A stretch of DNA of 64,000 nt from Gnetum montanum (GCA_015680685.1 MNCI01000967.1:418458-482457); one strand, 5' to 3'; numbered from the stretch's first letter, positions 4,088 to 61,768 are shown. Notes: a model not told the origin generated them from the letters alone. Made by a program: numbers and translations.

Positions 4088-4092
4088 AAAAC

Positions 4093-30300: not shown

Positions 30301-30722
30301 CTATTTTCATTGAATCTCGCTCTATTTCTAGTTTTCTTGTGGAACTATCTCTTTCTCTAAGGAAAATTAGAAGTAAATTCGTAGAGTTGTGCTCAAATTT
30401 TTTTGCAAAATTTTATTTGTTACAAGTAGGTATTATAAGGACCTCATAGACTAGGCAATTGAACAAAATAGGAACCCTCAACGATTCACAGTACTTTGCA
30501 AAGTTGGCTGAATCTCTTTAAGATAAGTCATTTATAGTTTTACACACAACCCAATCGTTTCATTTTTCATAACAGCACACCACAACATCACACACACATA
30601 CTCACATTAACTACTGAGTCTATTTGGAGGTACCTGGGCCTTGGTGTTGCTAGAGACCATCAAGCACCTAAATCCTGTTCAAGGACACTCGTTGGCGATC
30701 GCGTTCCAAATGGTCACCAATA
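27377..30722 (+). repeat. 5' LTR (~3.35 kb)
   Basis: TGTTGGCAC...GGTCACCAA(C>T)A; colinear with 32815 onward; TATA box CTATAAAAGGG near 29519-29529. Confidence 0.9.
28320..28941 (-). pseudogene. Captured BAHD (HXXXD) acyltransferase fragment in the 5' LTR, GLAUCE/HHT-like, intron retained (28477-28601)
   Basis: ERSHLNLSNIDQ..FFY; YHFMAGRV..GRLYMDCN; DLVQPNPAF; APLFMI(Q>*); GT-AG intron; then KLKCGGVVIGAATSHGVL. Confidence 0.85.
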
Positions 30723-32814: not shown

Positions 32815-35800
32815 TGTTTGCACATTTTGGCCATTTCATGGAACAGAACCCAATTTCATCCAGAAGAAAATGAATGTAGAAAATTAAAGCAAGATGAAAT
32901 TAAAACAAAAGTGCAATGCCCGTTATTCAAAAGATTGAAGTCCAAATGCATATTGGGTGGACTTAATTGGCTATCGTTTTGTTTCGTGGGTCATGCACAC
33001 ACATAATTCCCACACATGTTTCCACTTCCTCTAATCAAGTTCTCGTGTCTTCTCATATTTTCGGATGTCTGTCTCTTCATCAATACCATATTCTCAGTCA
33101 CGCATAGTCATCTCATTGACATTAACATCAGGAAGCAAAAATTTCAAGTTGCGTGATTCTTAGCCAGACAAAGTACCAGCAGGACTAAGATCAGAAATGC
33201 TAAATTGGTTCTCCCAACTGTGATTGCTGCAATGCTCAATGCTCCATGACTGTTTATGATTAGGAAAATATTATAGTGATTTTTGGACATGTTTTATGGT
33301 GTGTTATGATGGACGTGATTGCTACTGATGGTAGCGGTTAACAGGAGCTGGACTTGTTCTTGTTCTGGAGGTAACAGTGTGGGTATTTTATTTCATCTCT
33401 CTTCCATTGATGTTGGGCATGGTTGCTGCCACTTGGGAAATACTTTACTGGGTCACATGTCTCGTCATGTTTTCTTCACCGTTGGTTATGCCTGGTTTTG
33501 CTTCCTCTCCATTCGGCTAACATGTGGACACAATTCCACACAACAAATTTCTATACGACAATGAGAAATATTAATTAGAGTTACTACATAATTAGATCTG
33601 GAATATTCTTTTCTAGATATTATTATGACTTAATTCTTATTGCAACTATTGCTAATGTCATTTTAAATGGAGACAAGCGAATAGCTACAAGTATCGATGA
33701 TTATAATAATAAAATTTAAAAATATATATGTGGCTATGTTGTATGGAAGAAAGAGAGAGAGAGTAGCAAAAGGTGGCACTGGATAAGGGTTACAACAATC
33801 ATAGTTTTTTATGGAATGCATGGCACATGGTGGCAGCAACTCGACGTAGAACACCATGGTTAATAGCCGCTCCTATGACAACACCACCGCATTTCAATTT
33901 TGTTACCTGTAATAAACATTTCAGCAGTAGCCTTTGTCAGGAATTTAGGATATCACATGCGCAGCTGCACAAGAAATGAACTGAAACAAAACCTAGAAAC
34001 TTCCATTTATAGTACTATCAGATTATTGTACCTAGATTATGAAGAGCGGGGCATCATGCACTGTGTCACAGTGCAGATTCCATTGTGCAAACTTGCAAAA
34101 TGCAGGATTGTATTGTGCCAAATCGCTAAGATCTAACATTTCAGAATTGCAAGAAGCCATTAACAATAGCACGCCAGCTCTATTACAATCCACGTACAAT
34201 CTTCCATTGTCGAAATCCATTGTGACCCTACCTTCCATAAAATGGTAGCGTAGGGTAGAAAAACATTGAGCTCAAGTAGAACATGACCATTTGATCAATG
34301 TTGGACAAATTGAGGTGGGATCTTTCAATGGGCTCAGCCATCTCTACCATTTCTAAACTTTTAATCTGAACATTGATAGATGTAGCAAGCGTATCAGATG
34401 GTAGCATGAAAGTATGAAACCAAACACCAAGGAATATAGTGGAATCAGAGAAACGTAAAACTACAAGAAAATAAAAATAAAAATCTATAGCTACTCTAAT
34501 GGAAATAGCAAAGGCAAGTCTTAAAAAAGTCTAGAATCCAAGTCGTCAACACATCTTCTTTCATAGGCACTGCAACGGGCTGCTCAAGAAATGCAATGAA
34601 GTCGACCTTGTTTACGATGATGAAATTGTGCTCATTATTTTCTAAGAGATAATGGATAATGCATCATCACCTATAAACATTTAGCCCTATGGTGAATATA
34701 GCCACTAGATACTTGGCTTCATTTTAAATTTCCTATAAAGGATGTAATTTCATGACAATTGTAGCCTCTCAATTGAAATGGTGGGTATAACCACTACAAA
34801 GGCCACTTGTCAACTACAACTTTTTTATCTCCATGGTGACCACTTGGCAACTGAATGGGCCACTTGGCAACTAAATGGGACACATGTCAACTGTAGCTTT
34901 TTTATCTCTATCGTGGTTATAACCACCCATAATGTTTGTAACTTACCTCACCTTCGCATGATGATTGTAACTACCTTGAGGTTACTATAAAAGGGCTTCA
35001 AGGGTAGGAAGGAAGGGGTCTGAAGAAGGGGTGGAGAGCATTGGTAAAAGAAGACATTGTGAAAGATTGCTTATAAGATGACTTGTTAAAGACAACATTT
35101 CAACCTCTTTGTCATAGTCCTATGAGTTATGTTTATTTTTTTATTTTGTTTAAATTGTTTAGCTAGTGGTTTAGATAATATCATGCTTGGCAAGTAATTT
35201 TGGGATTTTTAGATTGCTCTTATTGTTCTTGTTGCATGATAGAAAATTTCTATTAAAATTTTGCCATAGAAGAGCTTGTGTTTGAAAGCCTTAAGAGCAT
35301 TTTAGTAGTGAATTTTATTATTGTGCAATGTATCAGAAATACTATTGAGATTGTTGTAAGAGATCCTCCGCATGTAGTCAAGCCGTCCTCCGCATGTAGT
35401 CAAGCCGTTGAACGATTCAATAGTCAAGAGGGTTCAGAAAATCTTTGGTATTTTGATAGGACCAGAATAGCTTCTTTTATCTTTAAAGTGAATCTCTGTG
35501 GTATTTCAATCATGAATTTTCAATTCTTTTGAAGGTTCTATTGAATGGAATTGTTGATGTCCATTATCTAGCAAAAATATAGTCTAGTACGTGATAGTTT
35601 ATGCAGCAATTTTTTGGGTAGCATAGTAGAATTTTCTTGAAGAAATTGCTTATTTGAGCCTTGGAAGTTTGAATAATTCATAGTTATTGAATTTGGGATA
35701 GCTTTATTGCGAAGTGTTTACTCATATAATTTTACCTTGTTTAAACATTTGAGGTCTTTACACAAATCTTCTTTATTTTTCTTTTCTTTCTATTTCTATT

Positions 35801-36024
35801 GAATCTCGCTCTATTTCTAGTTTTCTTATGGAACTATCTCTTTCTCTGGGGAAAATTAGAAGTAGATTCGCAGAGTTGTGCTCAAATATTTTTGCAAAAT
35901 TTTATTTGTTACAAGTAGGTATTATAAGGACCTCATAGACTAGGCAATTGAACAAAATAGGAACCCTCAACGATTCATAGTACTTTGTAAAGTTGGTTGA
36001 ATCTCTTTAAGATAAGTCATTTAT
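32815..36024 (+). repeat. 3' LTR of the long-LTR element (truncated by an assembly gap)
   Basis: Starts TGTTTGCAC after the PPT; colinear with 27377-30535; private 22-bp tandem duplication at 35364-35407. Confidence 0.9.
33750..34407 (-). pseudogene. Captured BAHD acyltransferase fragment in the 3' LTR, intron 33907-34031
   Basis: MLPSDTLATSINVQIKSLEMVEMAEPIERSHLNLSNIDQ..YHFMEGRV..GRLYVDCNRAGV..NPAF..APLFII(Q>*), then after the intron VTKLKCGGVVIGAAINHGVL. Confidence 0.87.
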
Positions 36025-36025
36025 N

Positions 36026-36832
36026 TAGGGAATGCAAATTAGCTTTTCAAACTCTGAAACAGAAGCTAGTAGAAACAACCATTCTACAAGTTCCTCATTG
36101 GTCCAAACCATTTCATATCATGACTGATGCATCCAAATATGCCTTAGGAGCTGTACTTACATAGTTAGATGACCAGAAACATCCTTATTACATCCACTAT
36201 GCAAGTAGAAGTATCGCTGGTGCACAACTTAACTACACTATCATAGAGAAAGAATTAATGGTTGTAGTGTTTGCACTAGAAAAGTTTAGACATTATATAA
36301 AGTATGTATACATGAAGATCATAGTTGTTGGTGACCGTTTGGAACGTGACTGTCAACGAGTGTCCTTGAACAGGATTTAGGTGCTTACTGGTCTCTAGCA
36401 ACACCAAGGCCCAGATACCTCCAAATAGACTCAATAGTTAATGTGAGTATGTGTGTGTGCTTTTGTGGTGTGCTGTTATAAAAAATGAAACTATTGGGTT
36501 ATGTGTAAAACTATAAATGACTTATCTTAAAGAGATTCAACCAACTTTACAAAGTACTATGAATCGTTGAGGGTTCCTATTTTGTTCAATTGCCTAGTCT
36601 ATGAGGTCCTTATAATACCTACTTGTAACAAATAAAATTTTGCAAAAATATTTGAGCACAACTCTGCGAATCTACTTCTAATTTTCCCCAGAGAAAGAGA
36701 TAGTTCCATAAGAAAACTAGAAATAGAGCGAGATTCAATAGAAATAGAAAGAAAAGAAAAATAAAGAAGATTTGTGTAAAGACCTCAAATGTTTAAACAA
36801 GGTAAAATTATATGAGTAAACACTTCGCAATA
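36026..36832. other. Mis-oriented contig between two N bases (assembly artefact)
   Basis: N at 36025 and 36833; holds Athila RNase H on the plus strand (MTDASKYALGAVL..NYTIIEKEL) and the LTR end reversed; reverse-complemented, it restores LTR end, TSD and RNase H continuity with 27371. Confidence 0.88.
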
Positions 36833-40676: not shown

Positions 40677-41613
40677 TGATGAGTGACGCAGTACCCCTAT
40701 TCTCAACCATACAAATACAAATGTTTTATGCATGATCCGGTCGAATTACAAGAACTAAGTGCTTATGCGCCCTTGTGGAAGAAGGATGGGTTGGTTGATT
40801 TTTGTCTTTCCTAGCTTACCTATATGTCATGATTGTATGGTTAAGTAAGCTTTAGGCACATGATTTTTATAGCTTTTATGTTTTTATGTCCTATGCTAAT
40901 AGGGAAAGAGAGATAACTAGGTGACTAATTTAACTTAACTACTCATTAACTAAGTTCTAAATAATCCTAACACAAGCATCCATTCCCACTTTCCATACAC
41001 ATCCTAAACCAGTGCAACACTGCTGGGATTACTAAACCCTAATCATTACTAGGTTACCGAGTATTACACGCATACTCAAAGCAGTCGTGCTTGTGTAATT
41101 TAACGATTTGCTTAATTGATCAAAATGAATTGTTGTGCTAATAACATAAATGTGAAGTGCATAAAATAAAATAAAATAAAATAAATTCATAAGAAAATAA
41201 AATAAAAGAAATGGGTAAGAAAACAAATCTCAAGTGCTGCAAGGATGAATCAAAGAGCTCGTCTTTATTGCCATACACAAGGTGTGCTCAAGTACATAAT
41301 GCTCGAATAAAGATCCATCCACACTTATACCTCCTGTTGCATGCACTTGGAAAATACTCTAACTTTCAAATACACTACAAGAGTTTTGCTACTTGACTCT
41401 TGAAAGACTTCTCCTAAATTATGTGCCTGGGCATTGTATTTATAGGCTTTGGAGCAACTACTCTAATAATTAGAATAACTGCTAAAGTAACCACTAGAGT
41501 AACCACTCTAATAATTAGAATAACTGCTAGAGTAACCACTCTAATAATTAGAATAACTACTAAGGTAACCCCTAGAGTAACCTCTCTAATAATTAGAGTA
41601 ACTACTCTCATCA
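40677..41613 (-). repeat. 5' LTR of the Athila element
   Basis: Colinear with 22906-23865; adjoins the PBS. Confidence 0.92.
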
Positions 41614-43230: not shown

Positions 43231-45667
43231 GTGTGATGTTAGATGTGTTTAATAAGTTTTCCATTCAATAAAAATTCTCTATTATTATTTGAACCCATTT
43301 AGTTTCACTAAATAAAGTATCTTCAAACTTCTTGAAACAATGACGATGTTTATAGCTTCAAGACTAGGAGTAGAGAAACTAGAGTTATATTAGCATGATA
43401 GCTAATTACAAAGTTAGAAAAAGAACTACTACTTTTATCTAAATAAATAGGTGTACTTTAGTATGTCTAAACTTTCTAATGATGAATTTTTATTTTTGCA
43501 GATATCATTAATCAAACCAATATTCCTAAACACTTACTAATCTAGCTCTTACCCAATTCTTGAATTGGATTAACATGCAAGGTTGGCGTTCATGGGTCTT
43601 TATAACTAGTTGTTTTGATTAATACATTGTCAATCAATTTTATTATCATTATAATGAATAATAAAAACTAGAAAAATTTAGGACATGAATTAGCAAGAAA
43701 CCAATAGCCATTACATTAGCAAATGTGTAGGAATTCTTAGGATTCATGTGAAAACTAGAATTAATTTACAAGAAAAACCTTCTCATCATGATGAAAAGTG
43801 ATTATCTAAGTAATTTTTTAATACAATAGCTTCTGGAGGTGAAAGACTTAATATTAATAAAAAATATTTTGTTACTTTTATGGCTAGTCAAATTTTGAAA
43901 AGTAATTTATTACTAATTAATAAGAAACAAAGTCGAATAAGCTCTAGTATTGTATGGTTATATGATGTCTTTTTTAATAATAAGATAAATGATATTCCAA
44001 AAATAATATTTACTAGAATAAAAAGTATTAAACCAATTCATGAGATCCTAGCCTCTACATATCTTACTTTTTTTATTTTTTATTACAAAAAAAGGGTTTA
44101 ATATGGGGATGATACTAACCATTCATCATAACATCACCTTCAAACAACTATTTGGGGTACATTCCCTCATCAACATTTCTATAAAATAAGCCATTCCATA
44201 CCTACAACCTTCCAAATTTCCTACTACCACCACTACTATCACATCCCCATTCTCAAATGATGTTGCTACCTAACAAAGATGGTGCCTTTTCATAACAAGT
44301 GTTATTGTTATCTTAACAAAGACCCAAAAAGGAAATTTTAATTGAGACCCAAAAGGATGTATTGTAACAACGGACATGTCTCTTTAGGTAACCTTTGAAT
44401 GTTTGACCTAAGGCATTTATACACTAAATTAGAGGTCATGCTAGTAGGAGTGGCGGAGCTAGTATAGCCAAGTCATGGGAGCCAAAAGAAGTGGAACAGG
44501 AAGTGGATTGGCCATCCCTTTTAATTGATTGTAGGCCTAACCATGGTGGTAATGTTAAATTGCCTCTAAGGGATAGATTCCAAAGAAAGAGAACCCCAAA
44601 GAACACTCTTAGAGCATAATCCAGATACGCTATTCCATATCAATAAAGCATTATTTTCTTTTTCTTTTTGCATTTTTCCTATTATTTCCTTTATACATAA
44701 TGTCGAATATCACATATATTTTGCATTTGGTATATTCTCTTCATATGCTTAATGTCTAATATAATTCATATTTGATGTTTTCCATGACATCTGAGGATGG
44801 GATTTCACCATTGGTATTGGAGTAAACCATAACCCAAGGGCCATTCAGAACCATCGGCCAACTACAACATGAACCTAATGATGAACCTTGAAGCCACAAT
44901 ACAGGGAAAGCCATTGATCATCACCAGATGTACCATATGTTTGTGATGTAAGTTACAAGATACCTTTCCATTGATTTCATGAATAATGAATCAAGCATCT
45001 AGATCCTAGCAACCAACAAACTTCTTTCATGGATATCATTAACCAACAAAAATATGATCACACCTCATCAAGATTTATCAATTACAAGAGATGTTGATAA
45101 GACAATGATACACCTATCCAAGTAACTCTTACCCATCTTAATACTATAATTATTAATTGATTAGGATCATTATTAAATTTCCTTCAATAAAGTTAGTAAC
45201 CATGCCTTGAATTGATCTTGTTTTATTGAAATTCACTATCCATGTAATCTAGAAGATTTCAAGTTACCATATGTTAGCCTAGAAATGTTAGTTCAACAAA
45301 ATAGGCTAGTTTGGTTCTTTTAATTCCTAAAAAATCAGCTTCATTTTTGAACCCTAGGACTATGCCATTGCATATTACTCGTTGAGATAATTCCAACGAT
45401 ACAAATTTTCTCTTGATCATACTTACGGTTTGGGTGATATTGATGTTCAAAGTTTTTCATTATATGTGCATTAAAATAATTTTAATTATTTAATTATTAA
45501 ATTATTATTATTATTTTTAAAAAAACTTAAATTTTTAGTGTTGGAAATTAACCTAGAATTTCCATTTACCAACATCGAACCTCTACCCTATCATCAACCA
45601 AACCACCATGTCAACCGTTGAGGCAAGATGGATTAAAAAAAAACACTCTAAAACAATTATTGAGCGG

Positions 45668-45690
45668 GAGGTCACAAGTTTGATCCCGTG
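45668..45690 (+). promoter_or_regulatory. tRNA-like variable loop plus T-arm / Pol III B-box hairpin
   Basis: GAGGTCACAAGTTTGATCCCGTG, restorable to GAGGT-CACGGG-TTCGAT-CCCGTG; positional homolog of 54726-54748. Confidence 0.5.
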
Positions 45691-46912
45691 CCAAAAAATA
45701 TTTTTTATTAATAATAGTAATACAAATAAAAAATATTATTATTTATTAAAAAATTTAAAGAAACCCCTTTTGGATAGGCTGCAACTAACCTTATTGCAAA
45801 TCATAGCAAGGCCCACAAGGCTGACTAGCTACCACCAACAACTAGGCCTACCATGCAACACCAACCTGCTGCTTCAGCAACCCTTCACATGTTGTTGTCA
45901 CTTGATTCTACCGTTGGCCTGCATGTCATGACTCTTCACCCTACCACCTTCTATCTAACACATTCCAATACCTTTGTATGCACTCACACCATTTTCCTAC
46001 CTGCTACCTACCACCTTCATATGAAACCCTTATCATGTTTTTCACAGTTGTCGTTGACTGCATCACTACTACCTGTCACACCTATGGATCATCACCTCCC
46101 ATACCATGGATCATCACCACCCATGCTATGGATCATTGTCTTCCATGTCATTAAACATCACCTCCCATGCTACAGATCATCACCTTCCATGTCATCAATC
46201 AATGCCTCCTACATCGTCCATCATCGCCTTTCCCTCTAACACTAAAAAAACCCTCATCATCAATGTGTTTCAAGGTTATGCAAGCCATATTGATGGGTCA
46301 CATAGGCCCTATTAAAGGACCATGATGGCCTTATTTAGGGCTATGTAAGCCATGTGGATGGTTTCATGAGCCCTAAGGAGGGCCAGATGAACCTTGAGGA
46401 GGGGCACATAGGCCCCAAGAAAGGCCATGCAAGCCCTAGGAAGGATCCCATAGGCCCCAAAAAGGGTTGCACAAGCCCTAGGAAGGGTTTCACATGCCCA
46501 TGTGGGGGCCACATGAGCCCATGTATGGGTTAAGCTAGCCTTTGTGGGCCTCACTAGCTCTGCATAGACCACATGATGGAAAATGCCACACCACCATAGT
46601 AAATTCCATTGCCGACATGCACCTTCTCACCTATCGCTACCCTCGTCAACATGTCCAACATGGTCATTGATGTTACCCAGCAATCACTCAGGCCACCATC
46701 AGTGTGCCATGATCACCATTGTTTCCATTGTAATGAAACAACAAATTGAAAATTTTCAATTGCCCATCAACTAATGGAAAAATTAAAATTTCTGTCAATT
46801 AACAAAAAATTCAAATTTCCATCATTGAACGATTATTTTAAATTATAAATGCATGAAATATTTTTTAAATTTGAATTTGGTACCTTAGTAACCATAGGAA
46901 TAAAAATTTTGT

Positions 46913-46969
46913 AATTAAGCATGCTCATTCTAGAGTAGAACTAGGATGGGTGACCTCTCAGGAAGTCTC
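46913..46969 (+). promoter_or_regulatory. 5S rRNA-derived segment (A-box, IE, C-box internal control region), not a full 5S gene
   Basis: TTAAGCATGCTCATTCTAGAGTAGAACTAGGATGGGTGACCTCTCAGGAAGTC versus plant 5S TTAAGCGTGCTTGGGCGAGAGTAGTACTAGGATGGGTGACCTCCTGGGAAGTC (consensus from memory). Confidence 0.85.
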
Positions 46970-47636
46970 ATTTTTCATGCCAAAGGTCCTATAGTTCAAA
47001 AGCCATAACTTTTGATTTTGGAAGCCTTTTTCAGCAAATGAAGAGTCATTTCCTATATTTTTCAACCTTCTAAACACATTTGTGAAGTCAAATCCATCCT
47101 CGGAAACCCAAAAATTAGTTTTTACTCGTTGCTTGAAATAGTACCTCAAGATTCTCAAAAGTTTAATTTTCAACATAACTTGAGCATACGATGTCCATTT
47201 TCAACATATGAATAGTCATTTCCAACATTTTTCACCCTTCTAAACTCAATGGGGAGGTTAGATTTATCATCTAGGTACCTAATAATTCATTGATATCATA
47301 AATCGTGATTAACGAATATAACCTTTTTGGCATCTTAAGATCACTATGGCATGTCATTAGTTACACTACCAAAGTCAGTGTTCTTAAGGGGGTAGAAAGG
47401 CATTAAGAATTAGATAATATAGTTAAATATTACTAAAAATTAGGTAATGTAATTATATATTACTAAAATTAGATAATGTAGTTATTTAATTGATGTAGTT
47501 GATTATCATTTGATGTATTAGTTAATGATCAATTGATGTATTAGTTGAAGAATTAGTTGAGGAAACATAATAATCTTCAACCATCAAGAAAAGGTATATT
47601 AATCCATCTTATAATCAAAACATATGGCAAAAAAAC

Positions 47637-48793
47637 ATGGAGACTCAAAATCATGTTTCAACAAGGAGTATGATACCCATGAAGAGAAATAATCTAGAAG
47701 AGAATCCAAGAATGAGAATGAAACTTTCAACATACAACATGCTTGCAAGATTCCTAGTGAGTGAAAAACAACATCTGCTATGTCCATCATGGGCCTTGGA
47801 TTAGCATGAATATCCATATCCACATATCTTAGTAGAGTTAGAAGATTTGGATTCTAATGTCTTGTGCTACAGGAAATCTTGCCATGGGAGTTTCTATACC
47901 AATTCCAACCAAACTTGGAAAATATGGGATACAGAGGTATTTACAAACAACAAGGTCCTATGGAAGTTCTTCTTTTGAGCTGCATAGATTAGCATATTAC
48001 AGAAATCACAACATGGATGGTTGTATGATATTTTATAAAGAAGCCAAGTTTGAATTAGTACAAAGATTTTAATGGATTTTAGAATATATGATTTTTGAAA
48101 TTACAAAACTTCAAGCAATGGACAAGAAAGAATAGTTAAGACTGCAAAAAAATCACATGGCCTTAGTAGTAATTCTAAAAATCCATCTATCAAGAAGCTA
48201 TGTATGCGTGGTCAACACACATTTACTTGCCAAATCAACATGTTCAAGTGTTAGATTATGTCAAGAAGCATATTTGATTAAGCAAATACAAGAAAGATTG
48301 AAGAATAAGTTATTCTTAAGTTACATTGATCCACTTTCATTTATTCTTTTTGGAGACTTTAATGCAAAAGTTGGAAGTAGTGTTTATCAATTCTTAAAAT
48401 ATGGATATGTGAAGGAATCTTTGGAACCTAATTTGAAGAAGATGTTTCCATCAATTCAACATGCAATTCCATTAGCCAATGCATATTTTACTTACTTTGA
48501 ATCTTTAGTAGATAAATCATATTCTAGAATTTAAAAATAGATGATGTTGATGAATAATACTCATCAAGAACCATATTTTACCAATTACTCTACAATGATT
48601 AATCAGGATGGATTAACAACATTTTTCATTGAGACCTTATATTATATTTGGTACAGTGTTTGATTCTTCAAAGTTACCAAGTTACTAGAGTTAATTTCTA
48701 AAGAAGAAGTTGAGAAGAATCAAGATCAAGCGTTGTCATCCCGAACAATACCATCTGATCACATACCACTTACTCAACAACCAAAAAACTAGT
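47637..48793 (+). pseudogene. CCR4: Intronless CCR4/nocturnin-family (EEP) deadenylase catalytic domain, decayed
   Basis: In order: STYNMLA, CPSWALD*, ELEDLDSNVLC/QEI, GYRGIYK, DGCMIFYK, VCVVNTHL, VRLCQ, ILFGDFNA, SSVYQFL, HAIPLANAY, EPYFTNY, ETLYYIWY, PSDHIPL (48751-48771). Confidence 0.9.
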
Positions 48794-49546
48794 ATTTCAA
48801 CAAAAAATATGAATGACTTCACAAAGGAAACCATAGAAATCATACATCCTATCTTAGTTAAATTAGAAGATGAAAACATCCAAAACTAGATAAACTTATT
48901 TTTAGAAGCATCTATGGTCATAGATAAGATTAAGGATGATGTAGAAGAGATAAGAAAAAAAGGAGTCAAAAGGGTATGTAGAACATATTTTGATAAATTC
49001 AAAGCTAATGGAAAACATTACAGCTATAAAAGCATGACATACATAATTTCTACATACACTAGTCAATCTAAGCTCAAAATCAAAGGAGTTCATTAAAATT
49101 ATTAATATTTTGATCAAATAACAAGAAGAATTCTTGTAGGTAAAGAAGATGCTAAGTAGAAAGGAAGAAAAATGACCTAAAATAATTCTAGTAGCTAAGC
49201 CTTCAAACAAGTGGTGAATTTAAAAATAATTATTGATGAAGTAAATCATGAGTCTAGAGGTATTAGAAGGAGAAATTTTTATCTTCTTATACATTATTCT
49301 ATTATTAAATTTCTTTTCATGATTAATGTCAAAATAGAACTAATTAATCAAATTGTTAACCAATGTAAGAAGGAAATATGGATTTTTGTCTATCTAACAT
49401 GTGGTTGACAAAGGGAGCACCATAATATTTCATTTTACTTTATTTTTTTAAACAAGCTCATAGTCGGTGATGTAACTAAATCTATTGTAACCACTAGAAC
49501 TAATTGTTAGTTTTATTAGCATGTGTATAAATTTGTATGAGGAATT

Positions 49547-49959: not shown

Positions 49960-51637
49960 CAAAGGGACTACCCTCAAACATAAATGCTAGACACAAATTT
50001 TAAGAGAAGGTTAAAAAGATCAAGAATCATCACCAATATAGCATATTCATTCCTTACATAAAAACTAAAAAAAATGTAGAAGCTCTAAAAATTAAAAAAA
50101 AAATGTAGAGAATTGATGAACAATGAATATAAAGCTATCATGAAAAACTAGACTTGAAAATTAGTAAATAAACCAACAAGAAAGAAGATGACTAACTATA
50201 AATGGTTTTATAAAATCAAATTTAATTAAAGATGAGAAATCATCAAACACAATGCAAGACTTGTGGCTATAGGCTTTAAACAAAAGAAACACATTCTCTA
50301 TGAAGAGATATTTTCTTAAGTAGCAAGATTTACAACTATTAAACTCATCCTATTCATAGATACTCATAATAATCTCAAATGCCACCAAATGAATGCGAAC
50401 TTAGCATTTCTTAATGGTAATTTTAATGAGAAATTCTATGTCTACCAATCTAAAGGTTATGTTATAAAAAAAGACAAGATAAAATATGCAATTTAAGTAA
50501 AGTCTTTTATGGATTAAAGCAAGGTCTAAGAACATGGTTTCATGGAATTAATGACTACTTTCTAAAAAAAAGATATTCATATTTCATGTTTGAATCTACC
50601 TTGTACTACAAGCATGATAACAAGGAATTTATTATAGTCCCACTTTATATGCATGATCTTGTATCAACAATTATAAACAACAAGCTAATAGAATAATTTA
50701 AACTTGACATGAAGAGTAAATCTAAAATGAAAGACTTAGAAGAACTAAAGTATTTTCCTGTAATACAAGTTGATCAAAACAAGGAAGAAATTAAAGTTCA
50801 TCAAAATAAAAATGCTTCCTTTGGACAAGTACAAAATTAGTAAAGAAAAAGCCATCATGATTCCTCTACCTTACAATCTAAAACATAAAAATAATAACAT
50901 AATTCTTATAGATGCAAATCAATATAGGAGCATAATTGAAGCTCTCAAAATACTTTGTCATACAAGAAAAGATCTTAAATATGCCACCTCCTATCTATCA
51001 TGATTTATACATGAACCAAGGTAGAGCCACCGTAATGCTCTTATGCATGCCTTAAAATATGTCAATTGTACAATAGATCATGGAACCATCTATACCAAGG
51101 GAAATGGATACCTTCATGCCTATTTAGATGTTGATTAGAAAGAAAATCATAATGATAGAAATTTAACATTCAGAACTATAATATGTCATGGAGATAATTC
51201 AATATATTGAAAATTAAAAAAAGAAACTTCTATTAGCCTCTCAACTTATGAAGCTAAATTTATAGCAATGGATGAGAACATCCAACACATACTTTGGCTC
51301 AAGAAACTCATGATGCAGCTAGGATTCCAAGCTACCTCCCAATCAAATTATTTTCTAATAACATAGTTATCATTCAACTATCCAATGAGCATTTGCATCA
51401 TAAAAAACTAAAACACATTGACATAAAATACTATTTCATAAAGCAATAAGTGAAGGAAAATATAAAATTCATTCATGTTGAAATAAATGATTAACTTTCA
51501 AATATGCTAATAAAATCTCTTCTTCCATACAGGAATGAACCTCTTAACAAACTCATTTTATTTCTAAATATCGAGAGATAAGGATTAGTAGTTTCATCTC
51601 ACCTTAAAGAAGGGACTGTTAACATTAGTATGACATG
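49960..51637 (+). mobile_element. pol: Ty1/copia RT-RNase H remnant, PPT and first 21 nt of its 3' LTR (continues at 60966-61205)
   Basis: WFYKIK, ARLVAIGFKQ, HQMNANLAFLNG, FYGLKQ, LYMHDL, LSTYEAKF, KHIDIKYYF; PPT AAAGAAGGGAC then TGTTAAC at 51617. Confidence 0.85.
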
Positions 51638-52134
51638 TGTAACGTCCCATCCCTTATTAAGGGTGGAAACAATTGTAAACAATGTAATTAACCTTCTAAT
51701 GGAGGGTACCTCGTTATGAAGAGTTATGACTATTCATGTATCCCTTGGGAAAGGGTTTGACCTATGCTATTTAAGGTAGGGATTAGAGGTTGCGGAGCCT
51801 GGAGAGGCAAGTAATGGGAGTTGGATGAAGTGGAACAAGCAGGGGACTAGCCCACCCATCTGGCCGGGTTATACGCCTAACCATGGTGGCAGTGCTAGAT
51901 TGCCTCTAAGGCTTAAGTGGCATAGGAAGACAACCCAAAAGGGCATTACAGTACTCTCTTCCATTAATATAATTCTTCCATTTTTCTTTCCTTGTTTAAT
52001 TCTTTAGTATCAATTATTTATTTGCTAATTAATTCATTATTTAAGTGTTTATAATCTTTCCAATATGTTATCCATGATGAATATAATAAATTAAGCATTT
52101 GTATTTTTATGACATCTGGGAATGGGATGTCACA
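51638..52134 (+). repeat. 5' LTR of the Tekay element
   Basis: TGTAACGTCCCAT...ATGGGATGTCACA. Confidence 0.93.
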
Positions 52135-52340
52135 TTTGGTATCGAAGCAAATCACAATTTAGGAATCAAAATGAAAGCAAAACCTTATTTTATTATTATC
52201 ATAGAAAAAAAGTACATTTAAGAAAAATAACAACATGCAAGAAAATATTATTTTATTTTATTATCAAAAGGAATGAAGAGGAAGTACATCATCTAAAAAA
52301 GGGGGTAGAATGAGAAAATAAAGAAAAGGAGAAACTATAA

Positions 52341-54323
52341 TTATTTGTTATGACCAAATGATTCAAGAAGATCTATAACTATCTTCAATTGGGATTCTGT
52401 CTCTTCAATAGTAGCATCTACTTTGCTAAGCACTGCTTTACATCCAACCAGTCCATCACATAGCTATTTGATATATTTGGTCACACGTCTCACTGCAACT
52501 ACTGATTCTTCCTATCTTTAAAGTTGAGTTTTCAACATTTCCATTTGTACTGATCGATCATCCATGTCTCTTTACTATTCTTTTTCCTTTCTCTATAGAA
52601 ACAAAATTTAAATTATGAGTTATAAATAAATCAAAAAACCAAAAGGAGGAAAAAGAGAAAAATATATATATTACCTAAAATCAATCATTATCAATTTGAA
52701 AAAAAATGTGCATGAGTATCCAAATGACGAGCATAACATGTTGTACTTTCCAACTCTCCTAAGAGTTGCTCCAGACTATGTACAGCATCTAGAGCCACCT
52801 TAAGAATTGGATGCCAAGATGATGGAAGTCCAGCCTGTACTATATCATAATTTTCTTTGAAATTGCATGATTGTGACTCCTGTAGATGATAGACATCTTC
52901 ATGAATATAATAGGGTTTGTTGTCTAAAATTTGTTGATTAATATGCCAAAGAAGCACAAGTTCTTCTTCAGTAGCTACCACTATCTTTTCCATAGAATAA
53001 GAAGAACTAGAGATAGAGAAAGAAGAAACCACAGGAATAGATTTAGAAATTATTGTTGGTGATGCCTATGGAAGGAAACCTGTTCTAGGTGTTGAAGGAA
53101 AATAAGGTATGAGTAGTGATCTAGGTGGTGGTGGAATAGGAATCTGTGTAGAAGTAGCACCTACATCACCTCTATCCACCTCTTAGATAAAATATTGTCA
53201 CTTCATAGACCTCTGCAACATAAAAAAGAAATTTATTAAAAAATAATAATAATAAAAGAAAATATAAAAATATATATAAGACATTTAATTTAGTAAATTA
53301 TATTTAAATATATACCTTGGAAGCAGGAACTGTGACTTGTTCTTGCAATTGAACTATACCAAAGGTTGAAATACCTTGAATTTCTTCAACTTGTGCAGAT
53401 TCAACACTCTACATTGGTTCATTTTGCAGCCCAATTTGCACTTTTAAATACATAAAATAAAAAAATAATTAAGAAATAAGAAAATAATAAAAAAACAACA
53501 TGAAAGCCAATTGACCTTTTTTAGCATCCATAATCTTACTCCTTATAACCCTCTCATCTTCAATAAATTCAGAGCACAATCGAGGATCATAATGAGTAAA
53601 ACATTTTTTGGGATGATCATAACTTAAGATCATACACATGATCAAAGGTATACAACATAGAGTATAGGATTTTAAAGGATGTTGGTGGGCAACAGAAATT
53701 TCAGTCATAGCAGTATAAAAAGTAGAGAAACATGATATCGACCAATCATAAACCCTATCAGTTATGGCACCATGAAGTATGAAAATATAATAAGAACTAA
53801 CATTAGATTGTTTTCTATACCATAAAACCTTGCTACTGATGAATAAACATAAGTCAAAATAAGCATCATTAATGAAATCTTTACGAATGAATTGGTTTTT
53901 GCGAATGACAAAATCAGCAACATAATTGGATAATTCCTTCATACACAAAGATTTAAATTATAAAGAATGAGTTGTAGGAATCAACGAATCCTCTCCTGGC
54001 TGAAAACCTAAGATTACTTTGATATTAAGAGGAAGGATTGTTATTGCTCCAAAAACTAATTGAAAAATAGTGCTTTTCTTATTATCATATTGCTCAAACC
54101 ACTCTACAAGAACACCTTTGCAAAAGAAAAGTTTAAAAATTAGGAAAATCAGTAAATCAACCAATCTAGAAGTAGAGAAAAATTGAAAACCATCCTTCCC
54201 AAGCAAGCTACAAACCTAATCAGAAGTAATAAGAACATTATTTTGGTGTAGAAAAATATTAGTAGGTAATAAAGAGTAGCTACTTGAAGGGGCCCGAGGT
54301 GAAGTCTGACATTTGGAAGCCAT
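52341..54323 (-). pseudogene. Multi-exon antisense accessory gene between PBS and gag (hydrophobic N-terminal domain, Pro-rich linker, C-terminal coiled coil)
   Basis: ATG at 54323 (MASKCQTSPRAPSS..); ORFs 53958-54206, 53469-53948, 52691-53032; AT-rich GT-AG gaps at 53213-53315, 52593-52674 and probably 53441-53515; last exon ends ..IDLLESFGHNK* at 52341. Confidence 0.7.
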
Positions 54324-54725
54324 AAATTCTTTATAATAATAAGTTTTCAAACTTCTTTGTAGACAATCTTTTCCTCATTGTGATGAGTAAATCAACTTAC
54401 CTCTTATATTTATAACATAATTATAAAAATGTTAGTAAAATAAAAAAGAAAGTATAACTTAAGATAACAAAAGATTTAATAAAAGTTAACATATACTCTT
54501 TTTTGAGAAAAAAGCTAACATTTACTTTTTGTTTAAGAAGCTAACATTCACTTTTTTTATTTTATGATTTTTAGGTTTACTAAAATGAAGTTATCTATAG
54601 TTTAAGTAAAGAACTCTTTGAGACTATTCCAACGATACCAATTTCATCAAAATATGACTTATGGTTTGAAAGATATGACCACTCTTGTCTTATGTGCAAT
54701 TAAAAATATATATATAATCAGCTTA

Positions 54726-54748
54726 GAGGTCTCGGGTTTGAACCTGAG
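54726..54748 (+). promoter_or_regulatory. tRNA-like variable loop plus T-arm / Pol III B-box hairpin
   Basis: GAGGTCTCGGGTTTGAACCTGAG, restorable to GAGGT-CTCGGG-TTCGAA-CCCGAG. Confidence 0.55.
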
Positions 54749-55358
54749 CCCCAATATTAAGTTTTAATTATATATATATATATATATATTTAAAAAATTA
54801 ATAATAATTTTAAAAAAACTTTACCCCATGGCTAGGCCTACAGCTAGTTGTGGCCAACCATGGCTAGCCACAACCAGTTGCAGTAGGTTGCAGCAAGGCC
54901 ATGGCCAGCTGTGACCAACCACAGTTAGCCATGAGAGAGGGAGGGTCGCAGCCTCAAAAATCTGGCCCTAACAACCAAAGCAACAAAAATCATGTTTTTG
55001 CTATTTTTTTTTATTTTTTTTCTCTCTTTTTTATTTTTTATCACTATTTTTTTCTGCTAGTACCTTTGCCTACCTGCACTGCCCATCACCGCCTCCCCTA
55101 CTGCCCATCATCGCCTCTCACTGCCTATCATTGTCTCTTTTTTTCTACCCATCATCGCCTTCTAGCCATCGAACGGAGCCTAAATTGATCGTCTGTCAAT
55201 TCATGGAAAAATTAATTTTTTCTAACAATTGACAAAAATTTTGAAATTCCCATCAACTTATGGAAATTTTCAAAAAAAAAATTGGGCCGTTAATATTAGT
55301 TTAAGAATAAATATGTGCTTAATTATTTACAAAAATATAAATTGATGCTACAGTAGTA

Positions 55359-55416
55359 ACTTAAGCATGCACGTCCTAGAGTAGAACTGGGATGGGTGAC
55401 CTCTTGGGAAGTCTCG
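55359..55416 (+). promoter_or_regulatory. 5S rRNA-derived segment (A-box, IE, C-box) about 310 nt upstream of gag
   Basis: TTAAGCATGCACGTCCTAGAGTAGAACTGGGATGGGTGACCTCTTGGGAAGTC; about 45/55 matches to the plant 5S consensus by manual alignment, with 3 mismatches in the 36 nt from AGAGTAG to AAGTC. Confidence 0.88.
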
Positions 55417-55724
55417 AAAAACATGAAAATTAGAAAAACTTAAAATGGCTATAACTTTTGAATCTGGAGTCCATTTTCAACTAAACAAAAATCAATTCCA
55501 ACATATTTGAACCTTTCAAAATCAATGGAATGGTCAAATTTAGCTTTTAGATTATAGAAAATTAACTTTTAATTTCTTAATTTAGGTCCCAAAATAATTA
55601 GGATTTGGTGAGAAATCCATAACAATTTCAACTTCTTCCACAACTAACTAAACGATTTAAAATTCCATAAAAGGGCTATAAAGGCTAAGCATTCTCAAAC
55701 ATACCTAATTTCTTCAACTTACCG

Positions 55725-58700
55725 ATGTCCAGAACCTAAAGAATAAACTAGAAAGAAATGGAAGCCCAAGTCAAAGATCGAATGAATTCCCTTAAAGAAC
55801 AAATTAATGAGATTAGGGATGTTCAAGAAGAACTTCGACACTCAAACCAAGGGTTCAAGGCAGAGATGCAAAATATGTCTCAAGAAATTAAGAAATTGTC
55901 CCAAAATTTAGAGGATAAATGGTTCGAAGTATAAGGAAAGATGGATTCCTTTGCTAACTCCATCAAGTAATTAACAAACCACCTTATTCAACCTTCCAAT
56001 CCTACCCATGGTCTACCTAGAGCACAACATCAAGATCACCCTTCCATTAGGAATCCACAACAAACACAACCTCCACCTAATGGACAAGATACTAAAATCC
56101 ACCTTGTAGACTATAGAACTAAAATTGAGAGTGAAGGATATGGAACTAGCTTAATCCATTGAGAAAATCATTAACACAAGTGCATGCTAAGAAAGTAAAA
56201 TTATATCATTATGATGGAGCCCCTAGATCTAGTGCTAAGTCAAAGGATTGGCTTGATACAATGAAAAATTACTCTGATATGTTGAATTTGTCAAGCCATG
56301 AACATCTAGAAGTTATCTCCTTGTATTTAAGAGGACTTGTAGCAACATGGTGGAATGGGTTGATATTTTAAGGTTTGATTACAAGTTGGCTTAATTTTTG
56401 TCAAGATTTTGAACAAAAATTTGTTCCTAATTCTTTTCTCAAAGAGCATAGAATGAGATTTGATTCCTTAAGGTTGGGAAAATGATCTGTAGATGATTAC
56501 TACAAATAATTTTGTGATCTTTCTCGATATATAAGTCATCAGATAAGGGAGAATCAACTTCAAAATTCATTGGAGGATTACATGCTTAATTACATCCACA
56601 AACACAAGCCCATAATCCCCAAACTATTAATAAAGCATATAAAATTGCTAAGGATTACGAGGAATCGAATCAGATAAAAGTGACCCTTCGACAAGCAACT
56701 TTTTGACCAAGCCCTTTTCCACAAGAAATGGTAGAAGAGACACCAACAAAAAAATCTCAACTAGGATTTGGATGTTTCTTTTGTGGTGAGAACCATCTTA
56801 AATGAGATTGCCCAAAATTTCAAGCAAAAATACAAAGGACACACCAAATAAGAAATCAAAAACCAAACCTAAAAATAAACAAAGAAAAAATTCCAACCAC
56901 TACAGCAGCCATCAAGAAGATATCTAGATCGACTAAATTAGGTTTGCAAAAATTTCAATTTGCCTTACTGAACTTTGAAGGTTTAATTAAAGGTAAACAA
57001 ATTAAATTTTTTATTGATAGTGGCGCTAGTGATAACTTTATTTCTCCAAAGTTAATTAATTTATTGAAATTAAGTCTCCCTTCCAAAAAATATTAAGATA
57101 GAATTGGTAGATGGAACAACTGTGAGCAAATATACCAAGTATGGAAAAATAAATTTTACTTTGCAAAATATGCTCTTCATTGATGAATTTTTTGAATTTG
57201 AACTAGGTGAGGTTGATGGCATTTTAGAAATGTCTTTCCTACAAAAATTTTATGTTACTGCCCACTTTGGAACTCATATTTTAAAAGTTTCAACCACACG
57301 AAGTTAGGGTTCTAAGGGTGGTAGGAATAGCAAAGAAAATTCATACAATAACTATTAAGCAAGCTAAAAGATTAGTCAAAAAAAGGTGCTACAATGTTGG
57401 TGGTTAAAGCTATCCAACCTCAAAAACTTTTGAGTGTTGAGATTCCAAATGAACTTAAAGAATATAAAGATTCAGTATTTGGTGAAATTAGAAAATTACC
57501 TCCAAAAAGAATTCTTGAACATGCCATTGATATTTTTCCTGGTACACAACCTGTCTAAAAAGCTCCTTATAGATTTTCTACGTTAGAATTAAGAGAATTA
57601 AAAGTACAATTAGAACAATTATTGGAAGAAGGGAAAATTAGACCCAACGTATCTCCTTGGGGTGCATCAGTTCTATTCGTCAAAAAGAAAGATGGTACTC
57701 TAAGATTATGCATTGATTATAGAGCATTGAATAAAGTGATAATTAAAAATACTTATCTTTTACCTAGAATTGATGATTTATTTGATCAACTTAAGATTGC
57801 ATGTTATTTCTCAAAGATTGATTTAAAATCAAGATATCACCAAATAAGGATTAAGGAGAAAGATATTGGGAAAACTGCTTTTAGAACCATATATGGATTA
57901 TACCAATTTGTTTAGATGTCATTTGGATTAACTAGTGCACTTGCAACATTTATGACACGAGTTGGCCTCTCGGCCAAAATTAATGAATAATATTTTTCAT
58001 GAATATCTTAATCAATTTGTCATAGTATTTATGGATGATATACTCATTTATTCTAAATCAAGAGAAGCACATATCGAACATTTGAAAACTACAATGGAAA
58101 TTCTTAAAGAAAATTAATTAAAAGCTAAATTGAGTAAATGTGAACTCTTTAAGGAAGAAGTCTCATACTTAGGACATATATTTTTCAAGAAAGGATTGCA
58201 AGTGGATCCAACAAAAATTAGTGCGATCCGGGATTGGCTTGAATTAAAAGATGTTACAGTAGTTTGAAGCTTCTTCGGGTTAGCTAATTTTTATCGATGT
58301 TTCATTAAAGATTATTCTATGTTGGTAGCCCAATTAACTAACCTTTTACAAGAGAAACATGAGTTCAAAATTAATGAAAAATGCAGGGAATATTTTCTCC
58401 AATTAAAGATGCTACTTACAACAACACCTATTTTGAGAATTCCAGATGAGGATCTACCATTTGAAGTATCCACAGATGCCTGTGGAATAGGTATTAGTGT
58501 AGTTCTTTCCCAGGAAGATAAAGGGGTATGTTATGAATCTCGTAAATTACGAGGAGCCAAGGTAAATTACTCAACTCATGATTTAGAATTACTAGCAATT
58601 GTTCATGCTCTAAAAGTTTGGAGACATTATCTTTTTGAAAAGAAGTTTGTACTAAAAACATATTATAAAAGTTTAGAATATTTGCAAAGACAACCTATTT

Positions 58701-60265
58701 TCAATCCTCATCAAAGGTGATGGATAGTATTATTAGTAGAATATGATTTTGAAATCAAATATGTTCCTAGCAAAAAAAATGTAGTAGCTGATGCCCTTAG
58801 TTGAATGTGAAATTTAATGATAGGTGTAGTAATAACCCCTATGGAAGAAGAAATTAAGAAACAAATGAAAGAAGACCCTTACTTTAAAAATATTTTAACC
58901 AACATTCCCAATGAGCCTTAATACCAACTCACTTCTAATGGTTTATTGATGAAAGGACAAAGATTATGCATACTAGAAGGAAATTGGAGATTAAAATTAT
59001 TGTGTGAAGCACATAAAGTACCATATGTAGGATCCCCAGGTTATATTAAGACATATATGATAATTCAAAAATCTTATTTTTGGCCTGGAATGAAGAATGA
59101 TGTCTCTACATACCTTAAAAATTTCCCAACATGTTAAAGAATAAAAGCTAAACAAAGAAAACCTAGTGGATTATTACAACCCTTGGAAGTTCCAACCTAG
59201 AAATGGGAAGATATCACTATGGATTTCATTGTGGGAATGCCAGTAACCAAAAAAGAAAATGACTCAATTTTCATAGTAGTTGATTGTCTATCAAAGATGG
59301 CACATTTTATAGCTTCGAAATCTACAAACACAACAAAAGAAATAGCCAAAAAATTCATATGAGAAGTATTTAGATTACATGATTATCCAAAATCTATCAC
59401 TTCAAATACAGATCCTAAATTCATATTCGAATTCTGGAAAAATTTCTTTAGAGAGCTTGGAACTCAATTGAAATTTAGCACAACTTATCATCCTAAAACT
59501 AATGGACAAACTGAATGAGTGAATATAATATTAGAAGATATCCTACAAAGTTATGTTGGGACTAAACCACAAACAAGGGAGAATTATTTGCATCTAGTAT
59601 AATTTTCCTACAATAACAATTATCAATGTTCTATACATCGAACACCATTCAAAGTAGTATATGGACGTAATTATTGTACACCATTAACCTGGGTAGAGCC
59701 AACATTAAGAGCAAAATGGAAGGAAGAACAAATGAAAATAATGAAAAACATTGTCATAAGGGTTAAACAAAATTTGCAAGCTACCCAAGATAAATATAAA
59801 GGATATGTAGATCAACATCGACTTAAAAAAGAATTCCAAGTAGGGGATCAAGTATTGTTGAGAGTAAAACCTACCAAAAGTTCTCTTAAATTAGAAAAAT
59901 ATACTAAATTAGCACCTAGATTTTGTGGACCTTTTGAAATATCTAAAAGAATTGGTGAAGTAGCATATCAACTGAATCTTCTTGAAATCCTAAAATTCAT
60001 CTAGTTTTTCATGTGAGCTTGTTAAAGAAATTTCATGAAAATGATGTACCATATGTATTGGATTGGAATACTTTCCCATTACAATCCAACACTAGCTTTT
60101 AAGTAAAACCCATTACTATTAAATACCAACGAACCAAGAAATTATGAAATAAAACTATAGCGAAGTACTTGTTCAATGGTCAAATTGTGATCAACAAACC
60201 TAGGAAAATAGGGAGTTTATTTTAAATACTTACCCTCAACTTTTTAATCATCCAGATATTGAATG
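55725..60265 (+). pseudogene. pol: Tekay gag-pol (gag, CCHC, PR, RT, RH, IN, chromodomain) with stops and frameshifts
   Basis: CFFCGENHLK*DC (56773-56811); FIDSGASDNFIS (~57010); [31 protein letters not shown] (58028); TDACG; ITMDFIVG; PRFCGPF; chromodomain KL*NKTI..VLVQW..T*E..YPQLF (~60100-60245). Confidence 0.93.
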
Positions 60266-60448
60266 ATAGGTTGAATTTCTTATGGATGTAATAAATTATG
60301 CTTATAAATTTTGATCTTTTATTTATATAGATGATAATGAGGAAAATAAGGGAACTAAAGCTAAGGAGCATAACTATGAAGCAGCCATTAAGTAGCTGAA
60401 TATCGAGGAAGCGCTCGAGGACGAGCTAGATGCTTAAGGGGGGTAGAT

Positions 60449-60960
60449 TGTAATGTCCCATCCCTTGTTAAGGGTGGAAACAATTGTAAACAATGTAATT
60501 AACCTTCTAATGAAGGGATACCTCGTTATGAGGAGTTATGACTATTCATGTATCCCTTGGGAAAGGGTTTGACCTATGCTATTTAAGGTTGGGGTTAGAG
60601 GTCGTGCTGGCATGGAGTTGCAGAGCCTGAAGAGGTGAGTAACAGGAGCTGAATGAAGTGGGATAGGAAGGGGACTAGCCCACCCTTTTAGCTGGGTTAT
60701 AGGCCTAACCGTGTGGCAATGTTGGATTGCCTCTAAGGCTTAAGTGGCATAAGAAGACAACCAAAAGGGTGTTACAATACTCTCTTCCATTAATACAATT
60801 CTTCCATTTTTCTTTCCTTGTTTAATTCTTTAGTAACAATTATTTATTTGCTAATTTATTCATTAATTAAGTATTTATAATCTTTCCAATATGTTATCCA
60901 TAATGAATATAATATATTAGGCATTCGTATTTTTATGACATCTGAGAATGGGATGTGACA
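60449..60960 (+). repeat. 3' LTR of the Tekay element
   Basis: TGTAATGTCCCAT...ATGGGATGTGACA; carries a ~16-nt block near 60602-60617 that is absent from the 5' LTR. Confidence 0.93.
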
Positions 60961-61768
60961 ACATGCAATAAGATAGAAAAAATCAAAAGAGGACTTGAGC
61001 ATCACTTGGAAAGAGAAAGAAATAGAAGAATCAATCTTTTTTCTTATTTTTTTGAATTGATAGACGGATGTACTATTTTTTATCCCAATTCATTAATCTT
61101 TTAATTCATTTTCTGGTTGTCTTCAGTGAGAAGCATCTCTTTAATGAATCCTAGCATGACCCCATTATATTTGTATAAATTTAAAGGCAATATGATGATC
61201 TAACACTTTGGTATTCAAGGTAATAAAGTAGTTTTATACATTTTTTTATTCCAATCTCTAGTATTTCACCATTCCTTCCATAAATTTTTACATTCCATTA
61301 ATCTCTATCAAATTTACATTATTTTCTCTCTTACATATAGCAATTCATTCAAATATTTGCAACTTTCTCATCTTCATATTAACTTTACTTTACATTGCAA
61401 CTACTATAACTTTGCATTCCATTTCTATTTATGATAGAAGATCATCAATTAATAAGTTTTTCATCACCAAAATAGAAGTTGAGAAGTTATCATCATGTTT
61501 GTAACATCCTCCTACCTAACCTTAGGTTGGGAAGTATTATGTTAGGTAAAAATCCCTAATGAATTGAAACACCCCAAAGAAAATTCATGTTGTAGTTTAA
61601 AAGCTCATAGCCAAGACCTTTTGTTGTAATTTGGTGAAATTGTAAGCATAGAAACAATTACCTTATTTCCCTAAAAAAATCTTGTATTTTAGCATTATAT
61701 TGATGGAATTTAAGTAGTTTTTAATGTAAAAATTAAGATGTGTAGCCCACATGCTATAGATCTCATGC

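What the first reader, a model, noticed from the sequence alone, without database searches (positions are those of the whole stretch)
54600..55725. Autonomous-type chromovirus carries a 5S rRNA internal promoter inside its body, upstream of gag
Seen: 55359-55416 matches only the A-box/IE/C-box stretch of 5S rRNA, without the 5' half of the gene. It sits between a divergent antisense gene (ATG 54323) and gag (ATG ~55725), not in the LTRs. A TATA-like GGCTATAAAGG lies at ~55674. Known: this stretch is the TFIIIA/TFIIIC-bound type 1 Pol III promoter, and 5S capture is established for Cassandra TRIM LTRs and SINE3. I do not know of it as an internal module of a gag-pol-encoding Tekay element. Inference: the family co-opted TFIIIA/TFIIIC sites as an internal promoter, a chromatin barrier between two divergent transcription units, or a silencing-evasion device. 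It could also be a source or partner lineage for Cassandra-like elements.
Basis: partly seen in the sequence, partly recalled or inferred. Interest (0 to 1): 0.9.

Follow-up and report, generated by a model that had tools for sequence, protein, structure and literature searches.

The report
Retrotransposon keeps 5S promoter inside leader
A plant jumping-gene lineage that encodes its own copying proteins carries, inside its body rather than in its ends, just the control boxes of the 5S ribosomal RNA gene, better preserved than the DNA around them, likely as a landing pad for the host's 5S transcription factors, a trick so far described only for short parasitic elements.

Summary
55359-55414 matches 5S rRNA nt 50-105 (45 of 56 letters; nhmmer E 9e-9), without the 5' half. 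It lies in the 3.6-kb leader of a dead but complete Ty3/gypsy chromovirus (51638-60960, TSD ACATG). A second, older relative in the window has the same fragment (46905-46969). The two fragments are 89% identical, against 61% for their flanks and 63% for their LTRs. Changes fall between the promoter boxes and spacing is kept, as in Cassandra. Sequencing contigs show the fragment joined to element flanks in other copies under several species labels. Both elements also share a tRNA-type B-box motif upstream.

Not supported: the TATA box is specific to this copy, T-runs argue against Pol III making gag or genomic RNA, and the relative lacks the antisense gene. Best reading: one capture from the host's own 5S, kept likely as a TFIIIA/TFIIIC binding site that helps keep the leader open. 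Binding, expression and Tekay membership are untested. I found no report of this layout in nine literature searches; repeat libraries could not be searched.

The parts
51638..52134 (+). E1 5' LTR (TG...CA); TSD ACATG at 51633-51637 and 60961-60965
   Evidence: 91.5% identical to the 3' LTR over 495 ungapped columns, K2P 0.091
52137..52148 (+). E1 primer-binding site, tRNA-Met type
   Evidence: compared with the Met PBS printed in PMC7215508
52593..54323 (-). Broken, apparently spliced antisense gene; candidate GT-AG introns 54283-54216, 53515-53441, 53315-53213, 52674-52593; no known family
   Evidence: the third donor read; searches without a credible hit:
54613..54676 (+). Conserved leader motif shared with E2 45377-45440 (75%)
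54728..54745 (+). tRNA-like GGTC plus B-box motif, shared with E2 45670-45687
   Evidence: no Rfam tRNA match
55194..55255 (+). Imperfect palindrome shared with E2 46767-46824 (80%)
55359..55414 (+). 5S internal control region, nt 50-105: A-box 55359-55369 (9/11), IE 55376-55381 (5/6), C-box 55389-55406 (16/18)
55446..55550 (+). Conserved downstream block, present twice in E2 (about 47000-47069 and 47175-47274)
55674..55684 (+). TATA-like string, specific to this copy
   Evidence: table 3
55725..60245 (+). gag, protease, RT, RNase H, integrase and a frameshifted chromodomain (60052-60245), all broken by stops and frameshifts
60436..60960 (+). E1 polypurine tract and 3' LTR (60449-60960)
44375..44825 (+). 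E2: LTR remnant (63% to the E1 LTR) and Met-type PBS
46905..46969 (+). E2: second 5S fragment, model nt 42-107, followed by a T5 run at nt 108

Best explanation
A lineage of gag-pol-encoding chromoviruses carries the 5S internal control region in its untranslated leader, likely from a single capture of the host's own 5S gene, and likely keeps it as a DNA binding site for TFIIIA and TFIIIC that would hold the leader open for Pol II transcription. Shown: position, extent, recurrence in two diverged elements and in other copies, excess conservation, and changes concentrated between the boxes. Inferred: single capture, purifying selection, factor binding. Least certain: that the benefit is open chromatin or a barrier, helped by the tRNA-type B-box motif 0.6 kb (E1) or 1.2 kb (E2) upstream. 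E1 has 60 ATGs between PBS and gag, so gag would need an internal Pol II start or splicing; neither was observed.
For: E1 and E2 fragments agree at 49 of 55 columns, against 177 of 289 in the flanks (Fisher p 4e-5), 124 of 184 in the best-aligned flanks (p 0.001) and 63% in the LTRs. Relative to a plant 5S gene, both copies match 2 of 6 at nt 61-66, but 9/11 in the A-box, 5/6 in the IE and 15-16/18 in the C-box, with no indel. Cassandra shows the same pattern (MotIE, MotC; PMC10853983). The boxes are where TFIIIA fingers contact DNA (PMC1950542). Both copies share A76 and T95, and four other leader blocks in the same order, which points to one capture. T68 fits the host 5S: loose ends show A107 in the host-type 3' end, and 68 pairs with 107 in the folded plant gene. 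In one search, 5 of 32 listed contigs bridge the 3' junction with 31 or more letters on each side and 26-34 differences (runs X1, X2, X6). Only 2 of 15 listed joints delete the fragment, at depth 8-15 against 527-5,556 in the neighbouring bins.
Against: No binding, chromatin or RNA data. The conservation test rests on two copies and on a window chosen because it was recognisable; a flank window reaches 81%. Both copies miss G51 of the published Cassandra box A. The three CpG sites inferred for the fragment have decayed in both copies. One search shows only 40 of 325 variants, 15 of 150 joints and 32 of about 26,300 pieces; no listed piece bridges the E1 5' junction or joins the fragment to gag; the depth peak (0.4-1 million) includes real 5S genes; X1 may be the source sample. 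The B-box motif alone occurs at chance level (8 found, 8.2 expected), the longer pattern was noticed after seeing the sequences, and contig depth there is low (16-155). 0 of 42 related chromovirus loci from other hosts carry 5S, so the module is not needed by chromoviruses in general.
Confidence: 0.5

Rival explanations
1. The module is a working Pol III promoter that makes a short RNA of about 108-150 nt from inside the element, as Cassandra does from its LTR; the RNA or the act of transcription is what is selected.
For: All three boxes are kept at gene spacing. E2 has a T5 run at nt 108 directly behind the fragment, and 38-70 contigs per run show that flank (loose ends behind 55414). Cassandra 5S domains carry terminators (PMC12486564).
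Against: E1 has an A-run at that place and its first T4 at nt 147. G51 of the A-box is changed in both copies. No 5S-like sequence remains at nt 1-37.
Confidence: 0.2
2. The fragment is a neutral passenger: an old captured 5S piece or the remnant of a Cassandra-like LTR, copied along with the family and looking conserved by selection of the window or by conversion from 5S genes.
For: Only two copies were compared letter by letter. Other leader blocks reach 75-81%. E2's extent (nt 42-107) nearly equals the Cassandra core (nt 40-107 as printed). Relatives do without it.
Against: One transversion in 55 columns, against 31 in 184 in the best flanks, between elements whose LTRs are 0.51 substitutions per site apart. 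Shared non-5S letters A76 and T95 argue against conversion. No TG...CA ends, TSD or nearby PBS frame the fragment.
Confidence: 0.17
3. The module works in the genomic RNA, as a packaging, dimerisation or export signal that binds TFIIIA or ribosomal protein L5, or through its own hairpin.
For: It lies on the sense strand of the leader. Both copies fold a similar new hairpin between the changed spacer and the C-box. E2, which shows no gag-pol behind it, still keeps it.
Against: The folds are not better than shuffles (z -1.0 and -1.2). The 5' half and the 3' partner strand (nt 106-119) are gone. The change at nt 76 hits the loop E motif (role recalled, not from a call).
Confidence: 0.13

Closest known systems
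Cassandra TRIMs (PMC10853983 sections 14 and 21, passages, supplement part 1 of 4; PMC7215508 passages)
   Same: A 5S piece limited to about nt 40-107; boxes and spacing kept; variation in the A-box/IE and IE/C-box spacers; Met PBS; LTR retrotransposon.
   Different: Cassandra has the piece in the middle of both LTRs, is under 1 kb and non-coding, and is not reported from gymnosperms. Here there is one copy, 3.2 kb inside a 9.3-kb gag-pol element, and box A has one mismatch.
Ajax and Helenus TRIMp3 (PMC10886601 passages)
   Same: Pol III promoter pieces from 5S (Ajax) or tRNA (Helenus) in LTR elements.
   Different: Both are non-autonomous with the piece in the LTR. That paper expects autonomous partners to use Pol II and not to share long LTR stretches. 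Here a 5S piece and a tRNA-like B-box motif sit in one internal leader.
SINE3 and other 5S SINEs (PMC10946416 section 11)
   Same: Co-opted type 1 promoter.
   Different: SINE3 keeps the 5S 5' end and a LINE tail; none is known in plants according to that review. Here the 5' end and any tail are absent.
ETC sites and tRNA-gene insulators (PMC11346459 passages)
   Same: TFIIIC bound without productive Pol III transcription, proposed to organise chromatin; the model for the inferred mechanism.
   Different: Described in yeast and animals through B-boxes, not through a 5S control region inside a plant retrotransposon.
Plant chromoviruses with extra ORFs (PMC6317226, PMC7264820 passages)
   Same: Domain order, chromodomain, Met PBS, 5-bp TSD; antisense extra ORFs with their own internal promoter (Grande gene23).
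   Different: The described antisense ORFs lie mostly between pol and the 3' LTR. This one is 5' of gag and appears spliced. No 5S piece was mentioned in the passages read.

Membership tests
Ty3/gypsy chromovirus | LTRs, TSD, PBS, PPT | tested here: met
Ty3/gypsy chromovirus | Domain order gag-PR-RT-RH-INT | tested here: met
Ty3/gypsy chromovirus | Chromodomain after the integrase | tested here: met
   two frameshifted halves are the top hits among 2,556 tiles (E 2e-4 and 0.02); Pfam alone missed them
Tekay clade | Clusters with Tekay references in RT/RH/INT trees | not testable with these tools
   No labelled references held. The RT-piece tree leaves E1 on an unresolved fork, outside the P0064 group. 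The RT motif looks Tekay-like from recall only.
Autonomous element | Intact gag-pol | tested here: not met
   This copy is broken by many stops and frameshifts; autonomous in type only
Cassandra | 5S region inside both LTRs | tested here: not met
   only two 5S hits in the window, neither in an LTR
Cassandra | Short non-coding TRIM | tested here: not met
   E1 is 9.3 kb with gag-pol; E2 has at least 2.5 kb of internal sequence
Cassandra | Box A, 18 nt, box C consensus | tested here: inconclusive
   box C and spacing fit in 2 of 2 copies; box A has one mismatch in 2 of 2
5S rRNA gene | Full 120-nt gene above the Rfam gathering score | tested here: not met
   18.1 bits against 38; none at gathering score in the window
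SINE3 | 5S head from nt 1, tail and own TSD | tested here: not met
   nt 1-37 absent; no tail or TSD seen around the fragment
Type 1 Pol III promoter (functional) | TFIIIA/TFIIIC binding and Pol III initiation | not testable with these tools
   needs EMSA, ChIP or 5'-triphosphate RNA-seq

The most novel reading that the evidence does not exclude
An autonomous chromovirus lineage built a Pol III factor platform inside its leader, from a 5S control region plus a tRNA B-box, and uses host TFIIIA/TFIIIC as a chromatin barrier for its Pol II genes. The 5S piece has the same borders as the Cassandra core, in a host group where Cassandra is unreported, so this lineage would be a parallel invention or the long-sought autonomous relative of Cassandra.
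Probability: 0.25. Interest if true: 0.82.

Novelty: new variant of a known kind. Interest (0 to 1): 0.62.

Why it matters
A 2024 review lists 5S promoter capture only for SINEs and TRIM LTRs (PMC10946416 section 11), where it serves to transcribe a short element. Here the same piece is kept where it cannot plausibly transcribe the element, which separates factor binding from Pol III transcription and makes a barrier role testable in a plant. It bears on two open points in the papers read: Cassandra's unknown autonomous partner, and its absence from gymnosperms (host group inferred here). Dispersed copies would also inflate 5S copy counts and FISH signals.

Tried and rejected
No whole genome is held, so copies could not be aligned genome-wide. 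Junction pattern: 0 matches in viral and metagenome contigs; 5S core pattern: 0 in viral contigs, 33 loci in prokaryote assemblies, all plant 5S genes present as stray contigs and used only as references (14 of 33 sent to Rfam). Related chromovirus loci: 0 of 42 with 5S (18 of 42); only 4 of 23 checked show a PBS, with leaders of about 0.1-1.7 kb, so the test is weak. No RNA holder listed for the element; no RNA reads were examined, so expression, start sites and splicing stay open. Antisense protein: no Pfam family, 0 of 282 candidates, one hit in the full library, a repeat protein judged spurious; no structure-based comparison was obtained. Inverted-repeat (MITE-like) frame around the module: rejected, 108-819 of 1,000 shuffles score as well. 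A PPT-like string behind E2 (13 of 1,000 shuffles) has no LTR behind it. Rfam tRNA does not match the B-box motifs. The bacterial promoter scan is irrelevant here. The depth peak at the fragment was not used as a copy number. Earlier scan findings: nothing on this genome or sequence; the 8 shown of 47 concern LINEs, SINEs and a retrocopy and were not used. PMC2311327 (Kalendar 2008) is not held.

Full report
Element. Self-comparison of the window gives LTRs at 51638-52134 and 60449-60960, 91.5% identical over 495 ungapped columns, flanked by ACATG on both sides. A Met-type PBS follows the 5' LTR and a purine tract precedes the 3' LTR. Pfam finds gag, protease, RT, RNase H and integrase pieces in gypsy order. 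A profile built from fetched relatives finds a frameshifted chromodomain at 60052-60245 as the best hits among 2,556 tiles. This element (E1) is a chromovirus, dead in this copy. Its clade could not be fixed: no labelled references are held, and the RT-piece tree leaves it unresolved. The host is likely a gymnosperm; this is inferred from the 5S 3' end in loose ends, compared with recalled conifer 5S, and is not shown.

The fragment. Plant 5S genes were fetched as stray contigs in prokaryote assemblies. Against one of them, 55359-55414 equals nt 50-105 at 45 of 56 letters without gaps; nt 1-37 and 106-119 do not match. nhmmer gives E 8.8e-9. Rfam alone gives 18.1 bits, under the gathering score of 38. 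Nt 50-97 is the A-box, IE and C-box as defined for Xenopus (PMC1950542 passage).

A second element. The window holds another fragment at 46905-46969 (model nt 42-107, E 5.8e-9). It belongs to E2, which has an LTR remnant 63% identical to E1's, a Met-type PBS, and four further leader blocks shared with E1 in the same order. E2 has no homologue of E1's antisense gene and no gag-pol match behind it. The two fragments agree at 49 of 55 columns, against 177 of 289 in the flanks and 124 of 184 in the best-aligned flanks (p 4e-5 and 0.001). One flank window reaches 81%, and the test uses two copies and a window chosen after the fact.

Pattern of change. Both copies match the plant gene at only 2 of 6 letters in nt 61-66 and share A at nt 76, while the boxes match at 9/11, 5/6 and 15-16/18 and spacing is exact. 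Maiwald et al. describe this pattern for Cassandra, and their printed core runs from nt 40 to 107 (PMC10853983). Shared A76 and T95 point to one capture before E1 and E2 split. T68 fits the host gene: the host-type 3' end has A107, and 68 pairs with 107 in the folded plant gene. Both copies miss G51 of the published Cassandra box A and fit box C fully.

Other copies. Contigs of four DNA runs (four organism labels, three studies; X1 may be the source sample) were laid on 54500-56000 at 80% likeness. Of 32 listed pieces, 5 bridge the 3' junction of the fragment with 31 or more letters on each side and 26-34 differences, in X1, X2 and X6. None listed bridges the 5' junction or reaches gag from the fragment. 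Loose ends show E2-type flanks in all four runs (76-145 contigs before 55361, 38-70 behind 55414). Of 15 listed joints (135 not shown), 2 delete the fragment, at depth 8-15 against 527-5,556 in the neighbouring bins. The depth peak at the fragment includes real 5S genes and is no copy number. At the TATA-like string, 96-99% of depth reads C at 55677 and 92-95% reads G at 55681, so that box arose by decay of this copy. Related chromoviruses from other hosts lack 5S in 42 of 42 loci, but few have a demonstrably complete leader.

B-box. Both leaders carry a tRNA-like GGTC plus B-box motif (54728, 45670). These are the only 2 matches in the window; 200 shuffles give a mean of 0.01 and never 2. The B-box alone occurs at chance level, the longer pattern was noticed after seeing the sequences, and Rfam finds no tRNA. 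It is a lead, not a result.

Mechanism. Pol III is unlikely to make gag or genomic RNA from this site: four T4 runs lie before the gag ATG, the first at nt 147. E1's leader has 60 ATGs and a broken antisense gene with four candidate GT-AG introns, so gag likely needs an internal Pol II start or splicing. Conservation that follows the protein-contact boxes and spares the spacers fits DNA binding by TFIIIA and TFIIIC better than a 5S-like RNA; the folds are no better than shuffles. I therefore put 0.5 on a bound-factor platform that keeps the leader open, by analogy with ETC sites and tRNA insulators (PMC11346459 passages), 0.2 on a short Pol III RNA, 0.17 on a neutral passenger or Cassandra-like remnant, and 0.13 on an RNA signal. 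Against a strict barrier between two genes, E2 lacks the antisense gene. Against a methylation shield, the three CpG sites inferred for the fragment have decayed in both copies. No RNA, chromatin or binding data were examined.

Literature. Nine searches gave no report of an internal 5S control region in a gag-pol element. Read: PMC10946416 section 11 and passages; PMC10853983 sections 14 and 21, passages, and supplement part 1 of 4 plus a term search; PMC12222929 abstract and passages; passages only of PMC10886601, PMC7215508, PMC6317226, PMC7264820, PMC12486564, PMC7025596, PMC3692318, PMC8312256, PMC11346459 and PMC1950542. Kalendar 2008, Repbase, REXdb, subscription papers, bioRxiv supplements and figure images (including the Cassandra alignments) were not seen and could bear on novelty.

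Verdict. A real, recurring and probably selected module; not Cassandra, not a SINE and not a 5S gene. It is a new variant of 5S promoter capture whose function is inferred. Interest 0.62.

Noticed in passing
window 47620-48900 (+): Broken, apparently intronless CCR4/angel-like deadenylase gene directly behind E2's module, in the place where E1 has gag (PDB hits E 2e-7; Pfam EEP E 0.008). Whether it is cargo of E2 or a separate retrocopy is open; one search found no close relatives.
   Followed up: partly
window 52593-54323 (-): Spliced-looking antisense gene 5' of gag with a 248-codon frame broken by one stop; no family found.
   Followed up: partly
window 50320-51637 and 60961 onward: E1 appears inserted at the start of the 3' LTR of a decayed Ty1/copia element (RVT_2 at 50454-50693).
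   Followed up: no
window 46082-46213, 46295-46529, 55078-55161: 22-nt and 21-nt tandem repeats in the leaders of E2 and E1, between the B-box motif and the 5S fragment.
   Followed up: no
window 55370-55398 and 46924-46950: The changed spacer at 5S nt 61-69 can pair with the start of the C-box in both copies, forming a new hairpin; not significant against shuffles.
   Followed up: partly
window 27377-30535 / 32815-36024; 22906-23865 / 40677-41613; 30216-30720 / 36328-36832: Further LTR pairs (89% and 86%) and a short inverted duplication between the two N positions (36025, 36833), possibly an assembly artefact.
   Followed up: no
L043-L075: 33 short contigs in bacterial genome assemblies are flowering-plant-type 5S rDNA, evidently contamination.
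   Followed up: partly
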